Below are positions 2,761 to 64,000 of a stretch of 64,000 bases of DNA, in pieces (the stretch's first letter is position 1; each line of letters begins with the position of its first letter). The translations under genes were made by a program, and so were the position numbers. The notes beneath the pieces are model-generated. The model was not told the DNA's origin. It searched no databases and was given only the letters and a program-made list of their open reading frames with translations. Location of the stretch: positions 139,775-203,774 of IMG/VR virus record IMGVR_UViG_3300023174_000047; one strand, written 5' to 3'. Source of the stretch: a virus (lineage: Duplodnaviria > Caudoviricetes).

Positions 2761-3197
2761 TGCAAAAAGAATATAGACAAGGCATATACAAACCCATCAA
2801 CAATCAAAAATACATTGGTGATAAATTACCTTTTTATCGTTCTGGATACGAGCTCAAATTTATGCGCTGGGCTGATGCAAATCCCAATGTAATCAAATGG
2901 GGAAGCGAGAGCATCATTATTCCATACAAAAGCCCCATTGACGGAAAAATGCACCGATATTTTGTCGATAATGTTGTCATTATTAAAGAAGGTGAGCAAA
3001 TTAAAAAATACCTCATTGAGATCAAGCCATACAAACAGACTCTACCTCCCTCGGAACACGGCAATAAAAAACAATCCACAATATTATATGAGCATGCAAC
3101 ATATGCCATTAACATGCAAAAATGGAAATGTGCTAAAGAATGGTGCAAGCAACACAATTGGGAATTTTTAATATTAACAGAAAAAGAGCTGCCATAA
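2760..3197 (+). CDS. gp4: Head completion protein (T4 gp4-like, TnsA-type nuclease fold)
   Basis: GIYKPIN.QKYIG...YRSGYELKFMRW.D.NPNVIKWGSE.IIIPY.SP.DGKMHRYFVD...YLIEIKP; start overlaps the upstream stop (TAATG). Confidence 0.92.
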   Translation: MQKEYRQGIYKPINNQKYIGDKLPFYRSGYELKFMRWADANPNVIKWGSESIIIPYKSPIDGKMHRYFVDNVVIIKEGEQIKKYLIEIKPYKQTLPPSEHGNKKQSTILYEHATYAINMQKWKCAKEWCKQHNWEFLILTEKELP

Positions 3198-8981: not shown

Positions 8982-9015
8982 GCCGCGAGTTACATATGAT
9001 GTTATAAATATATGC

Positions 9016-29896: not shown

Positions 29897-29919
29897 GTCT
29901 GTTTATTTATACACCTTTT

Positions 29920-36533: not shown

Positions 36534-36547
36534 ATTATATTTATATA

Positions 36548-42129: not shown

Positions 42130-42567
42130 TTAATCCAATATACTTGATGATGTCACTCGCTGCATTACATCACTAATATCATCTTCAGATGGGTTGTTAT
42201 TACCTTTTAATTCGAGCAATGCTTTGGTCCATTCATATACATTTTCATACTTTTTATTATGTAAAAACCATGATTTATGTCCGTCTGCCCGTACAATGGC
42301 AGGTCCATCTTCTCTATGCCGCATGTCATTTAAATACCATGATTTACTTCCATCTGCCCATTCATCAGCAGGTCCATCTTCTCTATGCCGCATGTCATTT
42401 AAAAACCATGATTTACTTCCATCTGCCCATTCAATAGCAGGACCATCTTCTCTATGCCGTTTGCCATTGAGCATCCATATTTTATTGCCATATCTATCAA
42501 CAGTCATAGTTGGCCGCTGCATTGCATTTTCATATAACATTACAATGTTTTTACAGTCTTTGTTCAT
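42130..42567 (-). CDS. HREDGPA-repeat protein, class A (late promoter + leader), 3 repeats
   Basis: MNKDCKNIVMLYENAM...TSSSILD; TAAATA-tacgcat-ATG. Confidence 0.9.
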   Translation of the reverse strand: MNKDCKNIVMLYENAMQRPTMTVDRYGNKIWMLNGKRHREDGPAIEWADGSKSWFLNDMRHREDGPADEWADGSKSWYLNDMRHREDGPAIVRADGHKSWFLHNKKYENVYEWTKALLELKGNNNPSEDDISDVMQRVTSSSILD

Positions 42568-42577
42568 ATGCGTATAT

Positions 42578-43123
42578 TTAATCCAATATACTTGATGAAG
42601 TCACTTGCTGCACTACATCATTGATTTGATCTTCAGAAGGTTTTTTGATGCCTTTTAATTTTAAAAGTGCTTTAGCCCATGCAAATACATCTTCATATCG
42701 GCTGCTGTTCAAATACCAACCTTTGTATCCATCTGCACGTTCAACAGCGGGCCCATCTTCTCTATGCACCTTGCCATGCAAATACCACGCTTTATCTCCA
42801 TCTGCTTGCTCAACAGCAGGACCATCCTCTCTATGCGCCTTGTCATTCAAATACCAATATTTATCTCCATTTGCACATTCAATGGCAGGACCATCTTCTC
42901 TATGCAACCTACCGTGTAAAAACCATTCTTTACGTCCATCTGTAAACTCAACAGCAGGACCATCTTCTCTATGAAACTCTCCATGCAAATACCATGCTCT
43001 ATTTCCATTTGTATATTCATGAGCAGGTCCATCTGTTCTATGCAATTTGTTTTTGATCATCCATTTTGTATTACCATGCTTATCAACAGTCATAGTTGGC
43101 TGCTGCATTATATTTTCATTCAT
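42578..43123 (-). CDS. HREDGPA-repeat protein, class B (sigma70-like promoter, no leader), 5 repeats
   Basis: TTGAAC-17-TATATT-7-ATG (MNENIM). Confidence 0.9.
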   Translation of the reverse strand: MNENIMQQPTMTVDKHGNTKWMIKNKLHRTDGPAHEYTNGNRAWYLHGEFHREDGPAVEFTDGRKEWFLHGRLHREDGPAIECANGDKYWYLNDKAHREDGPAVEQADGDKAWYLHGKVHREDGPAVERADGYKGWYLNSSRYEDVFAWAKALLKLKGIKKPSEDQINDVVQQVTSSSILD

Positions 43124-43164
43124 TGCTTTCAATATAAAGTATATGTTGTAGATGTTCAAGCACT

Positions 43165-43533
43165 TTAATCCAATATACTTGAAGATGTTACTTGCTGCAC
43201 TTTATCATTGATCTCATCTTCAGAAGGATCATTAATGCCTTTTAATTTAAGTAAGGCTTCAGCCCATGCAACTACATCTTCATATCGGCTGTTGTTCAAA
43301 TACCAACTTTTGTATCCATCTGCATGCTCAACGGCAGGACCATCTTCTCTATGCCGCATGTCATGCAACCACCACGCTTTACTTCCATCTGCATATTCTA
43401 CAGCAGGTCCATCTTCCCGGTGCCATTTGCCATTGAGTCTCCATATTTTAGTGCCATCTTTATCAACAGTCATAGTTGGCTGCTGCATTGCATTTTCATA
43501 CAGCATCGCAATGTTTTTGTTGTCTCTGTTCAT
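43165..43533 (-). CDS. HREDGPA-repeat protein, class A, 2 repeats
   Basis: MNRDNKNIAMLYENAM; TAAATA-tacgcat-ATG. Confidence 0.9.
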   Translation of the reverse strand: MNRDNKNIAMLYENAMQQPTMTVDKDGTKIWRLNGKWHREDGPAVEYADGSKAWWLHDMRHREDGPAVEHADGYKSWYLNNSRYEDVVAWAEALLKLKGINDPSEDEINDKVQQVTSSSILD

Positions 43534-53055: not shown

Positions 53056-53149
53056 TTAGTGATATACTAATGCATATTGTAGATTGCTGATTAAAATATC
53101 AATCAGCAATCTACTTTTATTTAATATTCCATATAAATATGCATATACT

Positions 53150-54364
53150 ATGCATAAAATTTTATTAACAGAAATGAACAGGAAAAGTCGAATCATCGAA
53201 ATGTGGAAAGGTACAGGTCTGTGGGAAAAATGTTCAGAAGCAAGACGCAATAAGCTTTTAGCTACAATACAAAAAATGATTGAAGCGACTGGCGGTGGTA
53301 CAGAAGAATATGCAGAGTATGTTATGTGGCTTGCACGCATCATTAAACGTGGATTGTTATCCGTTGCCGGTAAACAAGGGCTAAAAAGAATTCAAGCAGA
53401 TGTATATGAAGGTAGACACACCACTGGTCAGGCGATAATGCGTGCACAAAACGATTATTACGCTTTTGTGGGGGATAGAACAATTGCTTTCTTTCAGATG
53501 CTTAAAACTATTAAAGAGGCTGCTGAAGAATGTAAAATCGATCCGAAATTCATTGAAGTTATGGACATTCGCAAAGGAAAGCAGCAATTCAATGCAGACG
53601 GTACACCAAAGGTTAAGCGCATAGAATTCAAACCTATGGAAGAACTCCTAAAAGTTAAAGTCACCAGAACGTCAGCGGCAGGCCGTCAAATTGATCGCCC
53701 TGTAGTACTAGATAGAGCGGAACCAGCAGCAGGTTCAGTTTATGATGACATTAATAAAGTATTGGCACCCCTGGGTGATGCAAGCCGTTTGCCTAAAGGT
53801 GAAAAATTAATGACGTTTGAAGATGGTACATACTGGACATTTGTTGATCAAATAACTTGTAAAGTTGAAGGCCGACTAGGGGGTCACTGCGGCAATGCTG
53901 ATCCTGATGCAGGTGATTCTATTATTTCCTTACGCAAGCCTAATGGAGTAGGGATGGGTGTACCTGCAGCCACCTTCATTTATAATAAAAACCGAAATGA
54001 TCTTTCAGAGATGAAAGCCAACCACAACCTGAAGCCTAATGATGCTGAACATAAATATATAGTTGAGTTATTATCAAAATCCAAATTTACAGTAAGCGAT
54101 ATAAATATAAATATAAAATATTTGAAAGGTGCCAGAGCCCTACCGCACATGGATTTTTCGCTCAATGATTTGTCAGAGCAAATGTTTAAGCAATTATGCC
54201 AAGAAAATCCCACATTGATAAAAACTCAAATTCAAAACGCAGAAAAAGTAAATATTCAACAAAAGCTTGATAAAGAGCATATAAAATGGTTTAACGAAAC
54301 TAATAACCCAAATACAAACAATCAAAATGAAACTAATTCTACTATAAAATATATGCAGGATTAG
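53150..54364 (+). CDS. PcfJ-like-domain late protein, possibly an internal head protein; start near 53150
   Basis: EGRLGGHCGN...IISLR...EMKANHNLKP resembles the PcfJ-like EG..MGHCVG pattern; TATAAATA 53132-53139; N-terminal ILLTE. Confidence 0.55.
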   Translation: MHKILLTEMNRKSRIIEMWKGTGLWEKCSEARRNKLLATIQKMIEATGGGTEEYAEYVMWLARIIKRGLLSVAGKQGLKRIQADVYEGRHTTGQAIMRAQNDYYAFVGDRTIAFFQMLKTIKEAAEECKIDPKFIEVMDIRKGKQQFNADGTPKVKRIEFKPMEELLKVKVTRTSAAGRQIDRPVVLDRAEPAAGSVYDDINKVLAPLGDASRLPKGEKLMTFEDGTYWTFVDQITCKVEGRLGGHCGNADPDAGDSIISLRKPNGVGMGVPAATFIYNKNRNDLSEMKANHNLKPNDAEHKYIVELLSKSKFTVSDININIKYLKGARALPHMDFSLNDLSEQMFKQLCQENPTLIKTQIQNAEKVNIQQKLDKEHIKWFNETNNPNTNNQNETNSTIKYMQD

Positions 54365-54426: not shown

Positions 54427-54861
54427 ATGAACATGGACTGCAAAAATATTACAAAGCTATATGAGAATGCAAAACAGCAGCCAATTTTAGATATCCTACC
54501 CAATGGAACTAAAATGTGGTGGTTGCACGGTGTGTGGCATAATGAAAATGAACCAGCCGTTGTTTATCCTAACGGAACTGAAGAATGGTATCTGCATGGT
54601 AAGTTGCACAATGCAAATGGACCAGCCGTTAAAAGTCTTCTCGGTTCCTCGTGGTACTTGCACGGCAAAGTTCACAGAGAAGATGGACCTGCTGTTGAAC
54701 GTGCAGACGGATATAATTCTTGGTGGTTGAATAATAAAAAATATAAAGATGTATTTGAATGGGCTAGAGCTCTACTTAAAATGAAAGGCATCAATGATCC
54801 TTCTGAAGATCAAATTAATGATAAAGTGCAGCAAGTGACTTCTGCAAGTATATTGGATTAA
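54427..54861 (+). CDS. Array gene 1, class A, 3 repeats (most divergent copy)
   Basis: MNMDCKNITKLYENA; HNENEPA/HNANGPA/HREDGPA; TAAATA 54416-54421. Confidence 0.88.
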   Translation: MNMDCKNITKLYENAKQQPILDILPNGTKMWWLHGVWHNENEPAVVYPNGTEEWYLHGKLHNANGPAVKSLLGSSWYLHGKVHREDGPAVERADGYNSWWLNNKKYKDVFEWARALLKMKGINDPSEDQINDKVQQVTSASILD

Positions 54862-54869
54862 ATATATCC

Positions 54870-55445
54870 ATGAACAAAGACAACAAAAACATCATGATGC
54901 TGTATGAAAATGCAATGCAGCAGCCAACTATAACTGTTGATACAGGTGGTAATAAAAGGTGGATGCTCAATGGCAAGATGCATAGAGAAGATGGTCCTGC
55001 TTTTGAAAATGCACATGGATATAAATCATGGTATTTGCATGGCGAGATGCATAGAGAAGATGGACCTGCTGTTGAACGTGCAGATGGAGGTAAAGCATGG
55101 TACTTGCATGGCATGCGGCATAGAGAAGATGGCCCTGCCATTGAACGTGCAAATGGAGATAAAGAATGGTATTTGCATGGTAGGTTGAATAGAGAAGATG
55201 GACCTGCTGTTGAACGTGCAGATGGAGGTAAAGCATGGTACTTGCATGGCATGCGGCATAGAGAAGATGGGCCTGCCGTTGAATGGGCTGATGGACGCAA
55301 AGGTTGGTATTTGCATGGCAAATGGTATGAAGATGTATTTGCATGGGCTAAAGCACTTTTTAAATTAAAAGGCATCAATAATCCATCTGAAGATGAGATC
55401 AATGATAAAGTGCAGCAAGTGACTTCATCAAGTATATTGGATTAA
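54870..55445 (+). CDS. Array gene 2, class A, 5 repeats
   Basis: TAAATA-tatcc-ATG; 191 aa. Confidence 0.92.
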   Translation: MNKDNKNIMMLYENAMQQPTITVDTGGNKRWMLNGKMHREDGPAFENAHGYKSWYLHGEMHREDGPAVERADGGKAWYLHGMRHREDGPAIERANGDKEWYLHGRLNREDGPAVERADGGKAWYLHGMRHREDGPAVEWADGRKGWYLHGKWYEDVFAWAKALFKLKGINNPSEDEINDKVQQVTSSSILD

Positions 55446-55455
55446 ATATACGCAT

Positions 55456-56100
55456 ATGAACAAAGACTGTAAAAACATTGCGATGTTATATGAAAATACA
55501 ATGCAGCAGCCAACTATGACTGTTGATAGATATGGCAATAAAACATGGATGCTCAATGGCAAATTGCACAGAGAAGATGGTCCTGCTGTTGAGCGTGCAA
55601 ATGGAGATAAATTTTGGTATTTGAATGGCAAGATACATAGAGAAGATGGACCCGCTGTTGAGTATGCTGATGGATATAAAGCATGGTATTTGCATGACAA
55701 GTTGCATAGAGAAGATGGCCCTGCTGTTGAACGTGAAAATGGAGATAAAGAATGGTATTTGCATGGTAGGTTGAATAGAGAAGATGGTCCTGCCTATGAA
55801 GGTGCAGATGGAGATAAATCATGGTATTTGAATGACAAGTTGCATAGAGAAGATGGGCCTGCCATTGAACGCGTAGACGGATATAAAGCATGGTATTTGC
55901 ATGGCGAGTTGCATAGAGAAGATGGGCCTGCCGTTGAATATCCTAATGGATATAAAGCATGGTGTTTGAACAACAGCCGATATGAAGATGTAGTTGCATG
56001 GGCTAAAGCACTTTTAAAATTAAAAGGCATCAAAAAACCTTCTGAAGATGAGATCAATGATAAAGTGCAGCAAGTGACTTCTGCAAGTATATTGGATTAA
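55456..56100 (+). CDS. Array gene 3, class A, 6 repeats
   Basis: TAAATA-tacgcat-ATG; 214 aa. Confidence 0.92.
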   Translation: MNKDCKNIAMLYENTMQQPTMTVDRYGNKTWMLNGKLHREDGPAVERANGDKFWYLNGKIHREDGPAVEYADGYKAWYLHDKLHREDGPAVERENGDKEWYLHGRLNREDGPAYEGADGDKSWYLNDKLHREDGPAIERVDGYKAWYLHGELHREDGPAVEYPNGYKAWCLNNSRYEDVVAWAKALLKLKGIKKPSEDEINDKVQQVTSASILD

Positions 56101-56110
56101 ATATACGCAT

Positions 56111-56479
56111 ATGAACAGAGACAACAAAAACATTGTGATGCTGTATGAAAATGCAATGCAGCAGCCAACTATGACTGCTGATGAAGGTGGTACTAAATGG
56201 TGGAGGCTCAATGGCAAATTGCATAGAGAAGATGGTCCTGCTGTTGAATATGAAAATGGATATAAAGCATGGTTTTTAAATGACGTGCGGCATAGAGAAG
56301 ATGGACCTGCTGTTGAATGGGCAGATGGAAGTAAATCATGGTATTTGCGTGGCAGCCGGTATGAAGATGTATTTGCATGGGCTCGAGCACTACTTAAAAT
56401 GAAAGGCATCAAAAAACCTTCTGAAGATCAAATCACTGATAAAGTGCAGCAAATAACATCTTCAAGTATATTAGATTAA
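56111..56479 (+). CDS. Array gene 4, class A, 2 repeats
   Basis: TAAATA-tacgcat-ATG; 122 aa. Confidence 0.92.
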   Translation: MNRDNKNIVMLYENAMQQPTMTADEGGTKWWRLNGKLHREDGPAVEYENGYKAWFLNDVRHREDGPAVEWADGSKSWYLRGSRYEDVFAWARALLKMKGIKKPSEDQITDKVQQITSSSILD

Positions 56480-56487
56480 ATATACAC

Positions 56488-56994
56488 ATGAGCAAAGATA
56501 ACAAAAACATCATAATGCTATATGAAAATGCAATGCAGCAGCCAACTATGACTGTTGATAAGAGCGGCAATAAAATATGGAGACTTAATGACAAATTGCA
56601 TAGAGAAGATGGCCCTGCCTATGAAGGTGCAAGTGGATATAAAGCATGGTTTTTAAATGACATGCGGCATAGAGAAGATGGCCCTGCCATTGAACGTGCA
56701 AATGGAGATAAAGAATGGTATTTGCATGGCAAGTTGTATAGAGAAGATGGCCCTGCCGTTGAGTATGCAAATGGAAATAAAGCATGGTATTTAAATGGCA
56801 GGTTGCATAGAGAGGATGGCCCTGCCGTTGAGTATGCAGATGGATATAAAAGGTGGTATTTGTATGGCAGAAAGTATGAAGATATATTTGAATGGGCCAG
56901 AGTATTACTTAAATTAAAAGGCATCAATGATCCTTCTGAAGATGAAATCAATGATGTAGTTCAGCAAGTAACTTCATCAAGTATACTGGATTAA
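56488..56994 (+). CDS. Array gene 5, class A, 4 repeats
   Basis: TAAATA-tacac-ATG; 168 aa. Confidence 0.92.
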   Translation: MSKDNKNIIMLYENAMQQPTMTVDKSGNKIWRLNDKLHREDGPAYEGASGYKAWFLNDMRHREDGPAIERANGDKEWYLHGKLYREDGPAVEYANGNKAWYLNGRLHREDGPAVEYADGYKRWYLYGRKYEDIFEWARVLLKLKGINDPSEDEINDVVQQVTSSSILD

Positions 56995-57035
56995 AATACT
57001 TGAACATCTGCAACATATACTTTATATTGAAGGCA

Positions 57036-57443
57036 ATGAATGAAAATGCAATGTACCAGCCAACTATGATTGTTGATAAGAACGGCAATAAAAGATGGAG
57101 GCTCAATGGCAAATATCATAGAGAAGATGGACCTGCCGTTGAAAATGCAAATGGATGTAAATTGTGGTTTCTGCATGGCAAATTGCATAGAGAAGATGGA
57201 TCTGCCTATGAAGGTGTAGATGGAACTAAAGCATGGTTTTTAAATGACATGCGGCATAAAGAAGATGGCCCTGCCGTTGAGTATGCAGATGGAGATAAAG
57301 AATGGTGGTTGCATGGCAGAATTTATGAAGATGCAATTACATGGGCTGAAGCACTTCTCATATCAAAAGGCATTAATGATCCTTCTGAAGATGAGATCAA
57401 TGATAAAGTGCAACAAGTAACATCTTCAAGTATATTGGATTAA
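57036..57443 (+). CDS. Array gene 6, class B, 3 repeats
   Basis: TTGAAC(57000)-17-TATATT(57023)-7-ATG. Confidence 0.9.
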   Translation: MNENAMYQPTMIVDKNGNKRWRLNGKYHREDGPAVENANGCKLWFLHGKLHREDGSAYEGVDGTKAWFLNDMRHKEDGPAVEYADGDKEWWLHGRIYEDAITWAEALLISKGINDPSEDEINDKVQQVTSSSILD

Positions 57444-57451
57444 ATATATCC

Positions 57452-58030
57452 ATGAGCAAAGACAACAAAAACATCATGATGCTGTATGAAAATGCAATGC
57501 AGCAGCCAACTATGAAGTTTGATGATAATAGTGGCAATAAAATATGGAGGCTCGATGGCAAATGGCACAGGGAAGATGGCCCTGCCGTTAAATATGCAGA
57601 TGGAAGTAAAGCATGGTATTTGCATGGCAAGCAGCATAGAGAAGATGGACCTGCCTATGAAGGTGCAGATGGATATAAATCATGGTTTTTACATGGCAGG
57701 CGGCATAGAGAAGATGGACCTGCCATTGAACATGCAAATGGAGATAAAGAATGGTTTTTACATGGCAAGTTGCATAGAAAAGATGGCCCTGCCTATGAAG
57801 ATGCAAATGGAACTAAAGCATGGTATTTGCATGGCGAGTTGCATAGAGAAGATGGTCCTGCTTTTGAATATGCAGATGGACGCGAAGAATGGTATTTAAT
57901 TGGCAGCCCATATGAAGATGTATTTGAATGGGCTGAAGCATTACTTAAAATGAAAGGTATCAATGATCCTTCTGAAGATCAAATCAATGATGTAGTGCAG
58001 CAAGTAACTTCATCAAGTATATTGGATTAA
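57452..58030 (+). CDS. Array gene 7, class A, 5 repeats
   Basis: TAAATA-tatcc-ATG; 192 aa. Confidence 0.92.
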   Translation: MSKDNKNIMMLYENAMQQPTMKFDDNSGNKIWRLDGKWHREDGPAVKYADGSKAWYLHGKQHREDGPAYEGADGYKSWFLHGRRHREDGPAIEHANGDKEWFLHGKLHRKDGPAYEDANGTKAWYLHGELHREDGPAFEYADGREEWYLIGSPYEDVFEWAEALLKMKGINDPSEDQINDVVQQVTSSSILD

Positions 58031-58071
58031 AATGCTTGAACATCTACAGTAAAGACATTATATTGAAAGCA

Positions 58072-58479
58072 ATGAATAATAATACAATGCAGCAACCAAC
58101 CATGACTGTTGATACAGGTGGTAATAAATGGTGGAGGCTCAATGGCGAGTTGCATAGAGAAGATGGACCCGCCATTGAACATGCAGATGGAGATAAAGCA
58201 TGGTATCTGCATGGTGAGTTGCATAGAGAAGATGGCCCAGCCTTTGAATATGCAAATGGATTTAAATTATGGTATTTGCATGGCAAGTGTCATAGAGAAG
58301 ATGGGCCCGCCGTTGAACATGCAAATAGATATAAAGAATGGTGGTTACATGGCAACTGGTATGAAGATGTATTTGAATGGGTCAGAGCATTACTTAAAAT
58401 GAAAGGCATCAATGATCCTTCTGAAGATCAAATCAATGATAAAGTGCAGCAAATAACATCTGCAAGTATATTGGATTAA
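58072..58479 (+). CDS. Array gene 8, class B, 3 repeats
   Basis: TTGAAC(58036)-17-TATATT-7-ATG. Confidence 0.9.
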   Translation: MNNNTMQQPTMTVDTGGNKWWRLNGELHREDGPAIEHADGDKAWYLHGELHREDGPAFEYANGFKLWYLHGKCHREDGPAVEHANRYKEWWLHGNWYEDVFEWVRALLKMKGINDPSEDQINDKVQQITSASILD

Positions 58480-58519
58480 AATGCTTGAACATCTGCAATA
58501 GAGACATTACATTAAAGCA

Positions 58520-58858
58520 ATGAATGAAAATGCAATGCAGCAGCCAACTATGACCGTTGATGAGTCTGGCGTTAAAAAATGGAGGCTCAATGGCAAATTG
58601 CATAGAGAAGATGGTCCTGCTGTTGAATATGCAAATGGAAATAAAGCATGGTATTTGAATGGTAGATATCATAGAGAAGATGGCCCTGCTTTTGAAAATG
58701 CAAGTGGACACAAAGGTTGGTATTTGAATAATAGACTATATGAAGATATACTTGAATGGGCTAGAGCATTACTCACATCAAAAGGCATCAATGATCCTTC
58801 TGAAGATCAAATTAATGATAAAGTGCAGCAAGTGACTTCATCAAGTATATTGGATTAA
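58520..58858 (+). CDS. Array gene 9, class B, 2 repeats
   Basis: TTGAAC(58485)-17-TACATT-6-ATG; 112 aa. Confidence 0.9.
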   Translation: MNENAMQQPTMTVDESGVKKWRLNGKLHREDGPAVEYANGNKAWYLNGRYHREDGPAFENASGHKGWYLNNRLYEDILEWARALLTSKGINDPSEDQINDKVQQVTSSSILD

Positions 58859-58866
58859 ATATACAC

Positions 58867-59373
58867 ATGAATAAAGACAACAAAAACATCATGATGCTGT
58901 ATGAAAATGCAATGCAGCAGCCAACTATGACTGTTGATAGATATGGCAATAAAATATGGAGACTCGATGGCAAATGGCACCGGGAAGACGGACCTGCTTA
59001 TGAATATGCAAATGGAGATAAAGAATGGTATTTGCATGGCAAGTTGCATAGAGAAGATGGTCCTGCTGCTGAACATGCAGACGGAACTAAGGCATGGTAT
59101 TTGAATGGCTTCTATCATAGAGAAAATGGCCCCGCCGTTGAAAGAGCAAATGGAACTAAAGCATGGTGGTTGCATGGCAAGTTGCATAGAGAAGATGGCC
59201 CTGCTATTGAACGCGCAGACGGATATAAATCATGGTATGTAAATGACATTAAATATGAGGATATCTTTGCATGGGCCGAGGCATTACTTAAAATGAAAGG
59301 CATCAATGATCCTTCTGAAGATCAAATCAATGGTAAAGTGCAGCAAGCAACATCTGCAAGTATATTGGATTAA
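58867..59373 (+). CDS. Array gene 10, class A, 4 repeats
   Basis: TAAATA-tacac-ATG; 168 aa. Confidence 0.92.
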   Translation: MNKDNKNIMMLYENAMQQPTMTVDRYGNKIWRLDGKWHREDGPAYEYANGDKEWYLHGKLHREDGPAAEHADGTKAWYLNGFYHRENGPAVERANGTKAWWLHGKLHREDGPAIERADGYKSWYVNDIKYEDIFAWAEALLKMKGINDPSEDQINGKVQQATSASILD

Positions 59374-59414
59374 AATGCTTGAACATCTGCAATGGAGACA
59401 TTATATTGAAAGCA

Positions 59415-59891
59415 ATGAATAATAATACAATGCAGCAGCCAATTATGATTGTTGATGAGTATGGCACTAAAAGATGGAAGCTCAATAGCAAACGGCATAG
59501 AGAAGATGGTCCTGCTGTTGAATGTGCAAATGGAGATAAATATTGGTTTTTGAATGACAAGGCGCATAGAGAGGATGGTCCCGCCGTTGAGCTTACAGAC
59601 GGAACTAAGGAATGGTACTTGCATGGCAAGATGCATAGAGAAGATGGACCCGCTGTTGAGTATGCTAATGGAGATAAATATTGGTATTTGAATAGCAAAG
59701 CGCATAGAGAAGATGGACCTGCCATTGAATATGCAGATGGAACTAAAGCATGGTACTTGCATGGCAACTGGTATAAAAATGTATTTGCATGGGCCAAAGC
59801 ATTACTTAAAATGAAAGGCATCAATGATCCTTCTGAAGATGAGATTAACGATAAAGTACAGCAAGCAACATCTGCAAGTATATTGGATTAA
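59415..59891 (+). CDS. Array gene 11, class B, 4 repeats
   Basis: TTGAAC(59379)-17-TATATT-7-ATG. Confidence 0.9.
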   Translation: MNNNTMQQPIMIVDEYGTKRWKLNSKRHREDGPAVECANGDKYWFLNDKAHREDGPAVELTDGTKEWYLHGKMHREDGPAVEYANGDKYWYLNSKAHREDGPAIEYADGTKAWYLHGNWYKNVFAWAKALLKMKGINDPSEDEINDKVQQATSASILD

Positions 59892-59931
59892 AATACTTGA
59901 ACATCTACAGTAAAGACATTACATTAAAGCA

Positions 59932-60339
59932 ATGAATGAAAATGCAATGCATCAGCCAACTATGACTGTTGATAGATATGGTAATAAAATATGGATGCTC
60001 AATGGCAAGCGGCATAAAGAAGATGGACCTGCCGTTGAAAATGCAAATGGATGTAAATTGTGGTATTTGCATGGCGAGGTGCATAGAGAAGATGGTCCTG
60101 CCGTTGAATATGCAAATGGAGATAAAGCATGGTATTTGAATGGCGTGTGGCATAGAGAAGATGGTCCTGCCATTGAACGTGCAAATGGATTTAAATCATG
60201 GTGGTTGCATGGCAAATGTTATGAAGATGCATTTACCTGGTCTAGAGTCCTACTTAAAATGAAAGGGATCAATGATCCGTCTGAAGATGAGATTAACGAT
60301 AAAGTACAGCAAGCAACATCTGCAAGTATATTGGATTAA
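59932..60339 (+). CDS. Array gene 12, class B, 3 repeats
   Basis: TTGAAC(59897)-17-TACATT-6-ATG. Confidence 0.9.
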   Translation: MNENAMHQPTMTVDRYGNKIWMLNGKRHKEDGPAVENANGCKLWYLHGEVHREDGPAVEYANGDKAWYLNGVWHREDGPAIERANGFKSWWLHGKCYEDAFTWSRVLLKMKGINDPSEDEINDKVQQATSASILD

Positions 60340-60379
60340 AATGCCTGGATATCTATAATAAAGACATTACATTAAAGCA

Positions 60380-60787
60380 ATGAATGAAAATGCAATGCAC
60401 CAGCCAACTATAATTGTTGATAGGCGCGGCAATAAAACATGGATACTCAATGGTAAATATCATAGAGAAGATGGCCCTGCCTTTGAATATCCTAATGGAA
60501 CTAAAATATGGTTTCTATATGGCAAGATGCATAGAGAAGATGGCCCTGCCATTGAATATGCAGATGGAAGTAAAGCATGGTACTTGCATGGCGTGTGGCA
60601 TAGAGAAGATGGACCTGCCATTGAATATGCAGATGGAACTAAAGCATGGTACTTGCATGGCAACTGGTGTGAAGATGTATTTGCATGGGCTCGAGCATTA
60701 CTTAAAATGAAAGGCATCAAAAAACCTTCTGAAGATGAGATCAATGATGAAGTGCAGCAAGTGACTTCTGCAAGTATATTGGATTAA
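60380..60787 (+). CDS. Array gene 13, class B, 3 repeats
   Basis: CTGGAT(60345)-17-TACATT-6-ATG (degenerate -35). Confidence 0.9.
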   Translation: MNENAMHQPTIIVDRRGNKTWILNGKYHREDGPAFEYPNGTKIWFLYGKMHREDGPAIEYADGSKAWYLHGVWHREDGPAIEYADGTKAWYLHGNWCEDVFAWARALLKMKGIKKPSEDEINDEVQQVTSASILD

Positions 60788-60828
60788 AATGCTTGAACAT
60801 CTGCAATGGAGACATTATATCGAAAGCA

Positions 60829-61443
60829 ATGAATGAAAATGCAATGCACCAGCCAACTATGACTGTTGATAGAGACGGCACTAAATGGTGGGAGCTCAAT
60901 GGCAAACGGCATAGAGAGGATGGCCCTGCCATTGAATGTGCAAATGGAGATAAATATTGGTTTTTGAATGACAAGGCGCATAGAGAGGATGGTCCCGCCG
61001 TTGAGCTTACAGACGGAACTAAGGAATGGTACTTGCATGGCAAGATGCATAGAGAAGATGGACCCGCTGTTGAGTATGCTAATGGAGATAAATATTGGTA
61101 TTTGAATAGCAAAGCGCATAGAGAGGATGGCCCTGCCGTTGAGCTTACAGACGGAACTAAGGAATGGTACTTGCATGGCAAGATGCATAGAGAGGATGGT
61201 CCCGCCGTTGAGCTTACAGACGGAACTAAGGAATGGTACTTGCATGGCAAGATGCATAGAGAAGATGGACCCGCTGTTGAAAATGCAAATGGAGATAAAG
61301 AATGGTATTTGCATGGCAAATATTATGAAGATGTATTTGCCTGGGCTAGAGCATTACTTAAAATGAAAGGCATCAAAAAACCTTCCGAAGATCAAATCAA
61401 TGATATAGTGCAGCAAGCAACATCTGCAAGTATATTGGATTAA
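60829..61443 (+). CDS. Array gene 14, class B, 6 repeats
   Basis: TTGAAC(60793)-17-TATATC-7-ATG; 204 aa. Confidence 0.9.
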   Translation: MNENAMHQPTMTVDRDGTKWWELNGKRHREDGPAIECANGDKYWFLNDKAHREDGPAVELTDGTKEWYLHGKMHREDGPAVEYANGDKYWYLNSKAHREDGPAVELTDGTKEWYLHGKMHREDGPAVELTDGTKEWYLHGKMHREDGPAVENANGDKEWYLHGKYYEDVFAWARALLKMKGIKKPSEDQINDIVQQATSASILD

Positions 61444-61483
61444 AATACTTGAACATCTACAATGGAGACTTTATATTAAAGCA

Positions 61484-61891
61484 ATGAATGAAAATGCAAT
61501 ACATCATCCAACTATGACTGTTGATACGAGTGGCACTAAATGGTGGAAACTCAATGGCAAATTGCACCGGGAAGACGGACCTGCCATTGAACATGCAGAT
61601 GGATATAAAACATGGTATTTGCATGGCGAGTTGCATAGAGAAGATGGACCAGCCTTCGAGTGGGCAAATGGAGATAAAGTATGGTGTTTGCATGGCAAGC
61701 GGCATAGAGAAGATGGTCCTGCCGTTGAGTATGCAAATGGACGCAAAGGTTGGTATTTGAACAACAGCCGATATGAAGATGTATTTGCATGGGCCAAGGC
61801 ATTACTTAAATTAAAAGGCATCAATGATCCGTCTGAAGATCAAATTAATGATAAAGTACAGCAAGTGACTTCATCAAGTATATTGGATTAA
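61484..61891 (+). CDS. Array gene 15, class B, 3 repeats
   Basis: TTGAAC(61449)-17-TATATT-6-ATG. Confidence 0.9.
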   Translation: MNENAIHHPTMTVDTSGTKWWKLNGKLHREDGPAIEHADGYKTWYLHGELHREDGPAFEWANGDKVWCLHGKRHREDGPAVEYANGRKGWYLNNSRYEDVFAWAKALLKLKGINDPSEDQINDKVQQVTSSSILD

Positions 61892-61901
61892 ATATACGCA
61901 T

Positions 61902-62615
61902 ATGAACAAAGACAACAAAAACATCATGATGCTGTATGAAAATGCAATGCATCAGCCAACTATGACTGTTGATACGAGTGGCACTAAATGGTGGAAGCTC
62001 AATGGCAAATTGCATAGAGAAGATGGTCCTGCCGTTGAATATGCAAATGGAGATAAAGCATGGTATTTGAATGGCAAATTGCATAGAGAAGATGGTCCTG
62101 CCGTTGAATATGCAAATGGAGATAAAGCATGGTATTTGAATGGCAAATTGCATAGAGAAGATGGTCCTGCCGTTGAATATGCAAATGGAGATAAAGCATG
62201 GTATTTGAATGGCGAGTTGCATAGAGAAGATGGTCCTGCTGTTGAACATGCAAGTGGAACTAAAGCATGGTACTTGCATGGCAAGATGCATAGAGAAGAT
62301 GGACCTGCTGTTGAGTATGCTAATGGATATAAAGCATGGTGGCTGAAAGGCAAATATCATAGAAAAGACGGCCCTGCCTATGAAGATGCAAATGGAACTA
62401 AAGCATGGTATTTGCATGGCAAGCGGCATAGAGAAGATGGACCTGCCATTGAATATGCAGATGGAACTAAAGCATGGTACTTGCATGGCAACTGGTATAA
62501 AAATGTATTTGCATGGGCCAAGGCATTACTTAAAATGAAAGGCATCAATGATCCTTCTGAAGATGAGATTAACGATAAAGTGCAGCAAGCAACATCTGCA
62601 AGTATATTGGATTAA
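61902..62615 (+). CDS. Array gene 16, class A, 7 repeats
   Basis: TAAATA-tacgcat-ATG; 237 aa. Confidence 0.92.
   Translation: MNKDNKNIMMLYENAMHQPTMTVDTSGTKWWKLNGKLHREDGPAVEYANGDKAWYLNGKLHREDGPAVEYANGDKAWYLNGKLHREDGPAVEYANGDKAWYLNGELHREDGPAVEHASGTKAWYLHGKMHREDGPAVEYANGYKAWWLKGKYHRKDGPAYEDANGTKAWYLHGKRHREDGPAIEYADGTKAWYLHGNWYKNVFAWAKALLKMKGINDPSEDEINDKVQQATSASILD
62001..62207 (+). repeat. Three identical 69-bp tandem copies
   Basis: aatggcaaattgcatagagaagatggtcctgccgttgaatatgcaaatggagataaagcatggtatttg x3. Confidence 0.93.
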
Positions 62616-62655
62616 AATGCTTGGATATCTGCAAAGAGACTTTATATTAAAAGTA

Positions 62656-63135
62656 ATGAATGAAAATGCAATGCAGCAGCCAACTATGATGGTTGATGAA
62701 AAAGGCACTAAATGGTGGACGCTCAATGGCAAATATCATAGAGAAGATGGACCTGCCATTGAACATGCAAGTGGATCTAAAGCATGGTGGTATTTGCATG
62801 GCAAGTTGCATAGAAAAGATGGCCCTGCCATTGAATATACAAATGGAGATAAAGAATGGTATTTGCATGGCAAGCGGCACAGAGAGGGTGGACCTGCTAT
62901 CGATTGGGTGAGCGGAACTAAAGCATGGTGGTTGAATGATAAATATCATAGAGAAGATGGCCCTGCTATTGAATATGCAGATGGAAATAAATCATGGTAT
63001 TTGAATGATGCATGGTATGAGGATGCAGTTGAATGGGCAGAAGCATTGCTTAAATTAAAAGGCAACAAAAATCCTTCTGAAGATGAGATTAACGATAAAG
63101 TACAGCAAGCAACATCTGCAAGTATATTGGATTAA
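62656..63135 (+). CDS. Array gene 17, class B, 4 repeats
   Basis: TTGGAT(62621)-16-TATATT-7-ATG; one-residue insertion (KAWWYL). Confidence 0.9.
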   Translation: MNENAMQQPTMMVDEKGTKWWTLNGKYHREDGPAIEHASGSKAWWYLHGKLHRKDGPAIEYTNGDKEWYLHGKRHREGGPAIDWVSGTKAWWLNDKYHREDGPAIEYADGNKSWYLNDAWYEDAVEWAEALLKLKGNKNPSEDEINDKVQQATSASILD

Positions 63136-63175
63136 AATGCTTGGATATCTATAATAAAGACATTACATTAAAGCA

Positions 63176-63583
63176 ATGAATGAAAATGCAATACATCAGC
63201 CAACTATGACTGTTGATGTGGGTGGCAATAAAATATGGAAGCTCAATGGCAAATATCACAGAGAAGATGGACCTGCTGCAGAATATGCTGATGGAGATAA
63301 AGCATGGTACTTGCATGGCATGCGGCACAGAAAAGATGGCCCTGCCTATGAAGGTGCAAATGGAGATAAATCATGGTATTTGCATGGTATGTTGCATAGA
63401 GAAGATGGACCTGCCTTTGAACATGCAAGTGGACGCAAAGGTTGGTATTTGCATGGCAAATGGTATGAAGATATATTTGAATGGGCTAGAGTCCTACTTA
63501 AAATGAAAGGCATCAATGATCCTTCTGAAGATCAAATCAATGATGTAGTGCAGCAAGTGACTTCTGCAAGTATATTGGATTAA
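63176..63583 (+). CDS. Array gene 18, class B, 3 repeats
   Basis: TTGGAT(63141)-17-TACATT-6-ATG. Confidence 0.9.
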   Translation: MNENAIHQPTMTVDVGGNKIWKLNGKYHREDGPAAEYADGDKAWYLHGMRHRKDGPAYEGANGDKSWYLHGMLHREDGPAFEHASGRKGWYLHGKWYEDIFEWARVLLKMKGINDPSEDQINDVVQQVTSASILD

Positions 63584-63593
63584 ATATACGCAT

Positions 63594-63962
63594 ATGAACA
63601 GAGACAACAAAAACATCATGATGCTGTATGAAAATGCAATGCAGCAGCCAACCATGACTGTTGATAAAGGTGGCACTAAATGGTGGAGGCTCAATGGCAA
63701 ATTGCATAGAGAAGATGGCCCCGCCGTTGAGTATACAAATGGAGATAGAGAATGGTATTTGAATGACAAGTTGCATAGAGAAGATGGCCCTGCTTTTGAA
63801 GGTGCAGATGGAGATAAAGAATGGTATTTGAATGGCAAATGGTGTAAAGATATATTTGCATGGGCTCGAGCATTACTTAAAATGAAAGGGATCAATGATC
63901 CGTCTGAAGATGAGATTAACGATAAAGTACAGCAAGCAACATCTGCAAGTATATTGGATTAA
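63594..63962 (+). CDS. Array gene 19, class A, 2 repeats
   Basis: TAAATA-tacgcat-ATG; 122 aa. Confidence 0.92.
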   Translation: MNRDNKNIMMLYENAMQQPTMTVDKGGTKWWRLNGKLHREDGPAVEYTNGDREWYLNDKLHREDGPAFEGADGDKEWYLNGKWCKDIFAWARALLKMKGINDPSEDEINDKVQQATSASILD

Positions 63963-63967
63963 AATGC

Positions 63968-63996
63968 CTGGATATCTATAATAAAGACATTACATT
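63968..63996 (+). promoter_or_regulatory. Class B promoter of a 20th array gene that starts just beyond the window
   Basis: CTGGAT-17-TACATT, same linker sequence as before gene 13. Confidence 0.8.
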
Positions 63997-64000
63997 AAAG

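What the first reader, a model, noticed from the sequence alone, without database searches (positions are those of the whole stretch)
54427..64000. At least 9.5-kb tandem array of 19+ variable-length beta-hairpin-repeat proteins with fixed caps
Seen: each gene is an N-cap (PTMxVDxxGxKxWxLN), 2-7 copies of a 23-aa unit H-R-E-D-G-P-A-x-E-x-A-[DN]-G-x-K-x-W-[YFW]-L-[HN]-[GD]-x-x, and a conserved ~39-aa C-cap (YEDVFxWAxALLK(M/L)KGIxxPSEDxINDxVQQxTS(A/S)SILD). Lengths step by 23 aa: class A 122/145/168/191/214/237, class B 112/135/158/181/204. All frames are intact, so there are no pseudogenes among 22 copies. Diversity concentrates at about five positions per repeat. Established: MORN-like hairpin repeats form binding surfaces. 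Inference: a modular binder repertoire under selection, for example for anti-defence or antitoxin mimicry, rather than neutral duplication.
Basis: partly seen in the sequence, partly recalled or inferred. Interest (0 to 1): 0.85.

Follow-up and report, generated by a model that had tools for sequence, protein, structure and literature searches.

The report
Phage array of variable hairpin-repeat binders
A 204-kb lake phage devotes at least 13 kb to some 27 intact sister genes for small MORN-like beta-hairpin repeat proteins that keep a fixed scaffold and tail but differ at six surface-type positions per repeat, most likely a ready-made library of protein binders used against its host; similar arrays turn up in other big phages and in bacterial mobilisable elements.

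Summary
Window 54427-63962 (+) carries 19 tightly packed, intact paralogues (112-237 aa), and three more lie on the minus strand at 42130-43533. The array runs off the record end and resumes at its start with five more genes.

Each protein has a half-repeat N-cap, 2-7 units of 23 aa, and a 39-aa two-helix C-cap. AlphaFold models are confident (pLDDT about 90), and their best structural matches are MORN proteins and YwqK-type immunity proteins.

Six unit positions (8, 10, 14, 16, 22, 23) are hypervariable. Their pN/pS is 1.0-1.5 between paralogues, against 0-0.15 for the scaffold. Between orthologues in a 96%-identical relative it falls to 0.34, so each copy's variable residues are maintained.

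The array itself turns over fast. Only 3 of the relative's first 8 array genes have orthologues here, and an orthologue in the minus-strand cluster has 7 repeats against 5.

Arrays built the same way, with other caps, occur in other large uncultivated phages. They also sit inside or beside MobC-relaxase operons of Burkholderiales elements, which argues for a role in element-host conflict rather than in the virion.

Function is inferred, not shown. The scan noted similar arrays on other DNA before.

The parts
54427..54861 (+). g08, first array gene, 144 aa, 3 units (two degenerate: HNENEPA, HNANGPA)
   Evidence: The orthologue in the relative is 96.5% identical, dN/dS 0.12.
54870..55445 (+). 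g09, class A, 191 aa, 5 units
55456..56100 (+). g10, class A, 214 aa, 6 units
56111..56479 (+). g11, class A, 122 aa, 2 units
56488..56994 (+). g12, class A, 168 aa, 4 units
57036..57443 (+). g13, class B, 135 aa, 3 units
57452..58030 (+). g14, class A, 192 aa, 5 units (one extra residue in the N-cap)
   Evidence: The orthologue in the relative is about 96% identical (96.2% by BLASTP; 95.8% global), dN/dS 0.30.
58072..58479 (+). g15, class B, 135 aa, 3 units
   Evidence: The orthologue is 94.6% identical, and its differences cluster in the C-cap.
58520..58858 (+). g16, class B, 112 aa, 2 units
58867..59373 (+). g17, class A, 168 aa, 4 units (query of most searches)
59415..59891 (+). g18, class B, 158 aa, 4 units; shares a 193-nt exact tract with g21
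59932..60339 (+). g19, class B, 135 aa, 3 units
60380..60787 (+). g20, class B, 135 aa, 3 units
60829..61443 (+). g21, class B, 204 aa, 6 units, including recent internal unit duplications
61484..61891 (+). g22, class B, 135 aa, 3 units
61902..62615 (+). g23, class A, 237 aa, 7 units (the first three are near-identical tandem copies)
   Evidence: AlphaFold model m346f71d5c71b, pLDDT 89.4.
62656..63135 (+). g24, class B, 159 aa, 4 units (one inserted residue)
63176..63583 (+). g25, class B, 135 aa, 3 units
   Evidence: AlphaFold model mae1069787f60, pLDDT 90; fold searches
63594..63962 (+). g26, class A, 122 aa, 2 units; last complete gene before the record end
63963..64000 (+). 38 nt of a class-B-type spacer at the record end. 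The last 127 nt of the record recur exactly at window 60251.
   Evidence: This is typical of a short-read assembly graph breaking at a repeated k-mer.
42130..42567 (-). g05, class A, 145 aa, 3 units (second, small cluster)
42578..43123 (-). g06, class B, 181 aa, 5 units. The orthologue in the relative has 7 units.
43165..43533 (-). g07, class A, 122 aa, 2 units
53150..54364 (+). Upstream neighbour, 404 aa, PcfJ-like by language-model and structure look-alikes. TATAAATA sits 10 nt before its ATG. Conserved beside the array in the relative.
   Evidence: No link to the array beyond adjacency.

Best explanation
This is a germline repertoire of small cytoplasmic binding proteins carried by a T4-like freshwater phage.

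Architecture (shown). Each gene encodes a single-layer beta-sheet of MORN-like 23-residue hairpins. A half-repeat caps it at the N-end. At the C-end a helix caps it, followed by a strongly conserved acidic second helix. The scaffold residues (H-R-E-D-G-P-A, G13, K15, W17, L19) are fixed.

Variation (shown). Six positions per hairpin differ from unit to unit, giving 89 different six-residue combinations in 99 units. These positions are rich in Tyr, Arg and Asp.

Evolution (shown for the pattern, inferred for the mechanism). The array changes by homologous recombination between the 69-nt units and between the C-cap-spacer-N-cap junctions. This changes repeat number in steps of 23 aa, moves units between genes, and adds, removes or replaces whole genes. 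Selection then keeps each copy's variable residues.

Function (inferred). The proteins bind and neutralise or redirect a varied set of host proteins, or proteins of rival elements. Defence or toxin effectors are the most likely targets, in the way YwqK-type MORN immunity proteins bind their toxins. The constant C-tail serves a common function such as a shared partner or a delivery signal.

The architecture, fold, selection pattern, turnover and spread on other mobile elements are shown. The targets and the role of the tail are inferred.
For: Reality of the array:
- 22 intact genes in the window and 5 more at the record start.
- Unique array pieces are present without any difference in contigs of two independent lake studies. 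Their depth equals the flank depth (X1 27-41 against 39; X2 5-9 against 5-7).

Fold:
- AlphaFold pLDDT 90 and 89.4.
- The top PDB matches are all MORN proteins (MORN1, junctophilin, MORN4).
- AlphaFold DB matches are 'MORN repeat protein' (TM 0.72/0.86, 48% identity) and several 'YwqK family antitoxin' entries at E 1e-7 to 1e-9.
- MORN repeats are 23-residue hairpins that begin with a half-repeat and act as protein-protein modules (PMC7725318).
- YwqK is the immunity protein that forms a tight complex with the YwqJ deaminase toxin (bioRxiv 10.64898/2026.09.29.755374).

Selection:
- Scaffold pN/pS 0-0.15; hypervariable sites 1.0-1.54.
- Among nearest-neighbour units, 1.54 and 1.27 against 0.2-0.3 for the scaffold.
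- Between orthologues, hypervariable sites 0.34 (8 changes where about 24 are expected if neutral), scaffold 0.15, flank genes 0.17.

Turnover:
- The flanks of the relative are 95.5-96.9% identical and colinear, yet only 3 of its first 8 array genes have orthologues here. It has 4 genes where this phage has 5, and 5 where this phage has 3. One orthologue has 7 repeats against 5.
- 86 of 99 units have their nearest relative in another gene. Exact tracts reach 193 nt.

Generality and context:
- Arrays with other caps but the same variable positions occur in other large phages, with 104 matches on one 128-kb fragment.
- Seven-gene arrays lie between a MobC/NikA-like gene and an MbeA-like relaxase in Janthinobacterium and Duganella. 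Related genes lie beside MobC-relaxase pairs in four more Burkholderiales genomes.
- No signal peptide-like N-terminus; all copies are acidic (pI 4.9-6.5).
Against: - No target, no expression data and no binding evidence were obtained.
'Surface' therefore rests on residue chemistry and on the MORN analogy.
- pN/pS of 1.0-1.5 is only modestly above 1 and was computed on recombining paralogous units. It does not prove positive selection.
- No toxin or defence gene lies next to the array, unlike true YwqK loci.
- Sequence membership in MORN_2 fails Pfam's threshold (19.5 against 29.6 bits).
- PADLOC gives nothing.
- The orthologue test rests on four gene pairs from one relative.
- Gene order inside the array could not be verified with long reads.
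Confidence: 0.5

Rival explanations
1. The proteins travel with the DNA. The fixed caps are packaging or export signals, so that the binders are loaded into the capsid and injected, as T4 internal proteins such as IPI* are, or displayed on the virion. They would act at the moment of entry or in adsorption.
For: - The class A N-extension ends in L-Y-E, which resembles the L/I-x-E site cut by the T4 prohead protease (own knowledge). It is predicted as a short helix of low confidence.
- Class A junctions carry a TAAATA core 5-7 nt before the ATG. This is the same geometry as the TATAAATA late-type promoters of this phage.
- The upstream neighbour has a perfect TATAAATA, and no terminator-like site on the + strand separates it from the array.
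- In the bacterial mob-operon arrays the C-caps end in basic tails (K-P-K-P-T-Q-K-R-S-K-I type). These recall type IV secretion signals (own knowledge).
Against: - Class B genes (10 of the 19 main-array genes; 11 of 22 in the window) lack the N-extension, and arrays in other phages start directly with the half-repeat.
- The class A junction motif deviates from TATAAATA at two positions.
- The same kind of array on mobilisable elements, which have no virion, speaks against a structural or adsorption role.
- No similarity to known capsid or tail proteins in PHROGs.
Confidence: 0.2
2. The proteins are adaptors rather than inhibitors. The variable sheet picks a host protein, and the constant acidic C-tail hands it to one common machine such as a protease, a modifying enzyme or the replication compartment. 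Poxvirus ankyrin proteins work this way with their C-terminal F-box-like domain.
For: - The last 23 residues are the most conserved part of the protein. 16 of the 39 cap positions are invariant in 22 copies and the C-cap dN/dS is 0.27.
- The tail is kept in distant relatives that share only about half of the cap residues (P0123, P0125).
- The fusion gene at the record start drops the tail between modules but keeps a C-terminal domain at its end.
Against: - No partner is known.
- Synonymous sites in the tail are also unusually conserved. Part of the conservation may therefore be homogenisation by recombination, or may serve the start of the next gene.
- Other lineages have quite different, shorter caps.
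Confidence: 0.15
3. The proteins are immunity proteins in the strict sense. Each copy protects the infected cell or the phage against one contact-dependent or phage-borne polymorphic toxin, as in orphan immunity gene clusters.
For: Fold likeness to YwqK family antitoxins. Arrays of orphan immunity genes are known next to polymorphic toxin loci (own knowledge).
Against: - No toxin gene lies beside the array in the window, nor in the flanks read in the phage loci and the two mob-operon loci.
- The sequence does not reach the MORN_2 threshold.
Confidence: 0.08
4. The array is a functionless expansion of repetitive DNA, or an assembly artefact.
For: - The record ends inside the array at a 127-nt repeated word.
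- One 193-nt exact repeat exceeds that length.
- Short-read contigs fragment here.
Against: - 27 open frames with strong purifying selection on the scaffold.
- Orthologues are conserved in a relative.
- Unique pieces are found identically in two studies at single-copy depth.
- The related contig starts its array at the same place.
Confidence: 0.03

Closest known systems
MORN repeat proteins (MORN1, MORN4/retinophilin, junctophilins; PF02493) and the MORN_2 variant (PF07661)
   Same: 23-residue unit forming a beta-hairpin. Elongated single-layer sheet. Half-repeat at the N-end. A helix following or packing on the sheet. Use as a protein-binding module.
   Different: The consensus differs (H-R-E-D-G-P-A-x-E-x-A-x-G-x-K-x-W-Y-L-x-G-x-x against the YEGEW/GxG type). 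Pfam MORN gives no hit and MORN_2 is below threshold. PDB matches are weak (E about 1e-3, TM about 0.4). These are tiny stand-alone phage proteins in a tandem gene array.
YwqK-family immunity proteins of LXG/T7SS toxins (Bacillus subtilis YwqJ-YwqK)
   Same: Small cytoplasmic MORN-variant repeat proteins whose known job is to bind and block a toxin. Predicted structures match at E 1e-7 to 1e-9, TM 0.35-0.6.
   Different: There is no adjacent toxin gene. The copies are many and diversified rather than one cognate partner. The genes are carried by a lytic-type phage. There is no significant sequence match.
Multigene families of repeat proteins in large DNA viruses (MORN, ankyrin, FNIP and BTB families of giant viruses; poxvirus ankyrin/F-box host-range genes)
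   Same: Tandem paralogues of a repeat scaffold. Fast gain and loss between close relatives. Copy number is largest in the largest genomes: 104 matches on a fragment estimated at 28% of a genome (PMC5753266 listed). Giant-virus MORN proteins are structural matches.
   Different: The host is bacterial. The genes are much smaller. The array has strict cap-unit-cap modularity with length steps of exactly one unit, and the same six variable positions recur across lineages.
Variable lymphocyte receptors of jawless fish and designed repeat binders (DARPins, repebodies)
   Same: The design principle is the same: an N-cap, a variable number of near-identical modules with a few hypervariable positions on a sheet, and a C-cap and constant tail. 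Modules are shuffled by recombination (own knowledge, compared).
   Different: The fold is unrelated (leucine-rich or ankyrin repeats). Diversity here is germline, as many genes side by side, not somatic assembly.
Pfam DUF6745 (PF20530)
   Same: The whole-protein score exceeds the family threshold (41.7 and 45.6 against 27 bits). Many homologues are flagged with it.
   Different: Only profile positions 63-88 of 206 are matched, repeatedly, and no single stretch passes. The shared element is the HREDGPA hairpin, not the domain.

Membership tests
MORN repeat / MORN_2 (PF02493, PF07661) | Repeat period of 22-23 residues forming a beta-hairpin sheet | tested here: met
   69-nt/23-aa period. AlphaFold strands recur every 23 residues. 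MORN structure definition from PMC7725318.
MORN repeat / MORN_2 (PF02493, PF07661) | Sequence score above Pfam's gathering threshold | tested here: not met
   MORN_2 scores 19.5 bits against a cut-off of 29.6. There is no PF02493 hit.
MORN repeat / MORN_2 (PF02493, PF07661) | Structural similarity to solved MORN proteins | tested here: inconclusive
   All top PDB hits are MORN proteins, but E is about 1e-3 and TM 0.3-0.4. Predicted 'MORN repeat protein' models match strongly (E 2e-14, TM 0.72/0.86).
YwqK-family antitoxin / immunity protein | Gene paired with a toxin gene (LXG or other polymorphic toxin) | tested here: not met
   No toxin domain appears among the neighbours examined in the window or at the record start.
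YwqK-family antitoxin / immunity protein | MORN_2-type fold | tested here: met
   Six AlphaFold DB entries with that name match at E 5.7e-9 to 2.4e-7, TM by query 0.35-0.60.
YwqK-family antitoxin / immunity protein | Binds and neutralises a cognate toxin | not testable with these tools
   This needs a known target. No partner candidate was identified.
DUF6745 (PF20530) | Match along the 206-position domain | tested here: not met
   Only positions 63-88 are matched, and 0 stretches pass on their own.
Viral multigene family of repeat proteins | Tandem paralogues with rapid copy-number and content change between close relatives | tested here: met
   Flanks are 96% identical but only 3 of the relative's first 8 array genes are orthologous. 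Gene counts differ: 4 against 5, and 5 against 3.
Diversity-generating retroelement target | Reverse transcriptase and template repeat in the genome | tested here: not met
   No RVT_1 match in the 203,774-bp record, while the controls respond.
T4-type internal (capsid-targeted) proteins | N-terminal capsid-targeting sequence ending in L/I-x-E | tested here: inconclusive
   Class A copies have M-N-K-D-N-K-N-I-M-M-L-Y-E. Class B copies and other lineages lack it. Cleavage and packaging are not testable here.
Known anti-phage defence or anti-defence families (PADLOC, PHROGs) | Profile match | tested here: not met
   PADLOC gives none. PHROGs gives only weak matches to families of unknown function.

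The most novel reading that the evidence does not exclude
HREDGPA arrays may be a widespread, so far undescribed class of germline binder libraries of mobile genetic elements, found in large phages and in mobilisable or conjugative elements alike. Cap-delimited MORN-like modules would be shuffled by recombination to keep pace with variable host defence effectors. The lineage-specific caps would be delivery or partner signals: an acidic two-helix tail in this phage, and basic secretion-like tails in relaxase operons. The binders would then arrive with the incoming DNA.
Probability: 0.2. Interest if true: 0.85.

Novelty: new variant of a known kind. Interest (0 to 1): 0.62.

Why it matters
If these arrays are binder libraries aimed at host proteins, they would be a large and unexplored reservoir of counter-defence or host-takeover factors in environmental phages and mobilisable elements. 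One family yields more than 7,700 homologues in a single capped search, up to about a hundred matches on one phage fragment, and no paper in the library searched.

The strict cap-module-cap design, with six defined variable positions on a small, confidently folding scaffold, is also a natural analogue of engineered repeat binders and could serve as one.

The arrays break short-read assemblies. This fits the reported 37-fold enrichment of MORN-repeat proteins in long-read viromes (PMC9238414), so their abundance is probably underestimated.

Tried and rejected
- Homodimer prediction of the 135-aa copy: no verdict (score 0.10, mark 0.42). It is not evidence either way.
- RNA evidence: no RNA holder listed for the array or for g14-g15.
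- Megablast of 16 kb against cultured phages: no match.
- tblastn against cultured phages: only Celeribacter phage P12053L and Agrobacterium phage Atu_ph07, both 'hypothetical'. The Atu_ph07 paper does not mention MORN.
- Literature: no paper holds 'DUF6745' or 'HREDGPA'.
- PDB by sequence: nothing meaningful.
- NCBIfam: only a spurious weak dioxygenase match.
- PADLOC: nothing.
- Sigma-70-type promoter scan of the array: 57 sites against 43 +/- 7 expected, so not informative. The TTGAAC-N17-TATATT in the 41-nt class B spacers scores only 9 of 12.
- The metagenome scan with the last repeat plus C-cap found the same cap only on four 1.1-kb contigs of one sample.
- The C-cap profile against 1.84 billion representatives found only the family itself, two distant members, and weak hits to long helical-repeat proteins, one of them flagged Nif11. 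I do not read the Nif11 likeness as homology.
- Contig joints inside the array (for example 56009 to 56905 in two runs) have short anchors and may be repeat paths. They were not used.
- Placing the variable residues on one face of the sheet from strand parity alone gave contradictory answers, so I dropped it.
- Diversity-generating retroelement: rejected, no reverse transcriptase.

Full report
**What is there**

Between 54427 and 63962 the + strand carries 19 back-to-back open frames of 112-237 aa. Three more lie on the - strand at 42130-43533.

Parsing by the H-R-E-D-G-P-A motif shows one plan for every copy:
- an N-cap, M-N-E-N-A-M-Q-Q-P-T-M-T-V-D followed by a half-unit G-x-K-x-W-x-L-N-G-K-x;
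- 2-7 units of exactly 23 aa (69 nt);
- a 39-aa C-cap.

Class A copies have ten extra N-terminal residues and follow the previous stop codon after 8-10 nt. Class B copies start at the inner ATG after a 40-41-nt spacer that occupies the same length as the class A spacer plus its ten extra codons. Class B is therefore class A with a decayed extension; only the 41-nt versions keep an in-frame TTG.

Long frames on the other strand and in other phases are a side effect of the repeat.

**The array is larger than the window**

The window is the last 64 kb of a 203,774-bp IMG/VR record rated 96% complete. The record ends 38 nt into a class-B spacer. It begins in the middle of another copy, followed by four more. 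The last of these is a 559-aa protein made of three cap-unit modules fused head to tail plus a different C-terminal domain.

The final 127 nt of the record recur exactly inside the array. This is what a short-read assembler does at a repeated k-mer, so the two ends most likely join across a gap inside the array. The minimum is 24 genes and about 12.8 kb in the main array, and 27 genes and 103 units in the genome.

**Is it an artefact?**

Contigs of two runs from different studies (lake water 2018, freshwater 2019) contain the gene-specific pieces without a single difference. Examples are 57486-57729, 58065-58381, 59017-59308, 60382-60626 and 63169-63459. Their depth is close to the flank depth: 27-41 against 39, and 5-9 against 5-7. 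So the individual copies exist at one per genome.

Their order cannot be checked from these fragmented contigs. One 193-nt exact repeat (59518 and 60932) is longer than the likely k-mer.

A related 35-kb contig from another sample starts its array at the same place and also breaks off inside it. The only other contigs with this cap are 1.1-kb fragments. A long-read virome study reports MORN-repeat proteins 37 times enriched over short-read assemblies (PMC9238414). That fits this behaviour.

**Fold**

AlphaFold2, run on alignments of the paralogues, gives confident models for a 135-aa copy (pLDDT 90, pTM 0.77) and for the 237-aa copy (pLDDT 89.4). Short strands recur with the 23-residue period, followed by two helices in the C-cap. 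In the 237-aa class A copy, the N-extension is a low-confidence helix.

- Foldseek against the PDB returns only MORN proteins at the top, weakly (E about 1e-3).
- Against AlphaFold DB clusters the best matches are a 113-aa 'MORN repeat protein' (E 2e-14, TM 0.72/0.86, 48% identity) and several 'YwqK family antitoxin' entries.
- Against viral models the matches are uncharacterised proteins of uncultured tailed phages, at least eight proteins of Agrobacterium jumbo phage Atu_ph07, Celeribacter phage P12053L, and MORN proteins of giant viruses.

By sequence the family is not MORN_2 (19.5 bits against 29.6). It trips DUF6745 only through 26 of that profile's 206 positions.

**Variation and selection**

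In 99 clean units, positions 1-7, 9, 13, 15, 17 and 19 are almost invariant. Positions 8, 10, 14, 16, 22 and 23 carry 1.9-3.1 bits of entropy.

Per-column Nei-Gojobori counts, relative to the mean synonymous difference, give:
- pN/pS of 0-0.15 at the scaffold;
- 1.00-1.54 at the six variable positions;
- dN/dS of 0.27 for the C-cap.

Restricting to nearest-neighbour unit pairs, to limit saturation, gives 1.54 (90-95% identical) and 1.27 (85-90%) at the variable positions, against 0.20-0.28 at the scaffold.

These values are at or modestly above neutrality. They are computed on recombining paralogues, so alone they cannot separate positive selection from absence of constraint.

The orthologue comparison helps here. 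In four gene pairs shared with the relative (synonymous difference 0.092), the variable positions show 8 non-synonymous changes where about 24 would be expected if unconstrained. That is pN/pS 0.34, against 0.15 for the scaffold and 0.17 for flank genes. The positions that differ between copies are therefore kept within a copy, as expected for specificity-determining residues.

The variable positions are rich in Tyr (14.5%), Arg, Lys, Asp and Glu.

I could not map the positions on the model, because the tools do not give coordinates.

**Dynamics**

- The relative's flanks are colinear and 95.5-96.9% identical to the window.
- The first array gene and the pair g14-g15 are orthologous (95-97% protein identity). 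The other five of the relative's first eight array genes have best matches of only 72-82% here.
- Four genes stand where this phage has five.
- The small cluster has five genes against three.
- The orthologue of g06 has seven units against five.
- Within the genome, 86 of 99 units have their closest relative in a different gene. 22 units have a neighbour at least 95% identical, and 91 unit sequences are distinct.

This indicates frequent unequal exchange between units and between the conserved C-cap-spacer-N-cap junctions. Synonymous sites are also unusually conserved at those junctions. There is no reverse transcriptase in the genome, so this is not a diversity-generating retroelement.

**How general is it**

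Other IMG/VR phages carry their own arrays with different caps, for example:
- M-Q-E-I-K-I-D ... Y-W-R-L-V-K-L-K-A-L-W;
- ... F-L-D-F-L-K-N-K-I-K-K-E-I-H-F-E;
- ... E-E-F-E-E-Q-I-K-L-A-M-F-W;
- ... I-A-A-K-F-G-V-D-V-S-K-L-K-I-V-K.

A 128.5-kb fragment estimated at 28% of its genome has 104 matches, and a 239-kb fragment has 26.

The first cap helix is recognisably the same across lineages. The second, acidic helix of this phage is found only in its own clade and in two distant relatives.

The variable positions are the same (10, 14, 16, with 22/23, 8, 11 or 18) in five independent arrays. Earlier first-stage notes of this scan describe such arrays in other genomes. I saw the same caps in L005 and L013.

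**Context outside phages**

A scan of species-representative prokaryote genomes found 253 relatives across many phyla.

In Janthinobacterium sp. RB2P8 and Duganella qianjiadongensis, seven overlapping HREDGPA genes sit between a MobC/NikA-like gene and an MbeA-like relaxase (Pfam and NCBIfam, E 5e-33 and 1e-31). An AAA_13 ATPase follows.

Homologous MobC-relaxase pairs lie beside HREDGPA genes in four or five further Burkholderiales loci, including a second relaxase lineage only 31% identical.

The caps of the mob-operon arrays end in basic tails.

The same kind of array on elements that make no virion argues against a structural or adsorption role. It argues for a role in the conflict between a mobile element and the cell it enters. 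Anti-defence genes are known to cluster on plasmids where they are expressed first (PMC11541004). I did not establish on which side of the origin of transfer these arrays lie.

**Surroundings in the window**

The phage is T4-like: baseplate wedge, tape-measure-like protein and RNA ligases.

The array follows a PcfJ-like gene. That gene lies downstream of two RNA ligase genes. A polynucleotide kinase-phosphatase gene lies on the far side of the small minus-strand cluster, as seen in the relative's annotation.

None of 32 genes has a Shine-Dalgarno-like motif. TATAAATA or a TAAATA core lies 5-10 nt before many start codons. Class A junctions have a TAAATA core in that position, and the 41-nt class B spacers have TTGAAC-N17-TATATT. 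Neither can be called a promoter on this evidence.

**Reading**

The most economical explanation is a germline library of small MORN-like binders. It is diversified by unit shuffling and maintained by selection, and it is used inside the infected cell against a varied set of host or rival proteins.

The YwqK precedent makes toxin-type defence effectors the leading candidates. The constant tail may recruit a common partner or act as a delivery signal.

I put about 0.5 on this overall:
- near certainty on the architecture and its evolution;
- well under even odds on any specific target class.

Packaging or injection, an adaptor function, and strict toxin immunity are live variants. Neutral expansion and assembly artefact are effectively excluded.

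Noticed in passing
window 9003-9010, 29904-29911 (-), 36538-36545 (-), 53132-53139: TATAAATA (T4 late-promoter consensus) lies only 5-10 nt before start codons. None of 32 genes has a Shine-Dalgarno-like motif. This suggests near-leaderless late mRNAs and a host that does not use Shine-Dalgarno pairing, possibly Bacteroidota.
   Followed up: partly
window 53079-53114: Perfect 14-bp stem with an 8-nt loop followed by a T-run. It sits directly before the TATAAATA of the PcfJ-like gene, forming a terminator-promoter pair at the left border of the array region.
   Followed up: no
L037 (record start) 1514-3193: A 559-aa protein made of three cap-unit modules. They are joined where the second C-cap helix and the spacer are deleted. 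It ends in a different hairpin repeat (Y-F-E-N-S-x-G-x-W ... E-Y-D-E-K-G-N) and a tail resembling the ...E-I-A-E-K-F-G-V-S-V-D-Q-L-K-I-K-K caps of arrays in other phages and in a Flavobacteriaceae bin (L010-L012, L085).
   Followed up: partly
L082 4902-12371 and L084 3361-11635: Mobilisable elements of Janthinobacterium and Duganella share the order MobC/NikA-like gene, seven HREDGPA genes with overlapping stops and starts, MbeA-like relaxase, a 232-240-aa gene, and an AAA_13 ATPase.
   Followed up: partly
G001 = record of L007 (128,541 bp, estimated 28% complete): 104 matches to one array protein are spread over the whole fragment of what should be a phage of roughly 450 kb. This is a far larger expansion of the same family.
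   Followed up: no
L071 21-6025: A 6-kb contig binned as Anaerolineales consists entirely of 11 overlapping HREDGPA genes with their own caps (M-K-I-A-S-L-K-F-S ... F-E-Q-W-K-K-E-H-G-L). It may be a phage fragment mis-binned.
   Followed up: no
protein P0124 (680 aa): A secreted-looking protein has many copies of a helical motif, A-A-K-A-F-I-A-A-G-K-x-D-P-S-x-D-Q-I-N-A-W-V, flagged Nif11. It resembles the C-cap core W-A-K-A-L-L-K-M-K-G-I-N-D-P-S-E-D-Q-I-N. Probably convergence.
   Followed up: partly
window 1003-2760: A 585-aa HNH or homing-endonuclease-like gene (PHROG 3339, E 3e-91) lies next to tail genes.
   Followed up: no
window 54100-54113: Two overlapping TATAAATA motifs lie inside the 3' part of the PcfJ-like gene, about 310 nt before the first array gene.
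   Followed up: no
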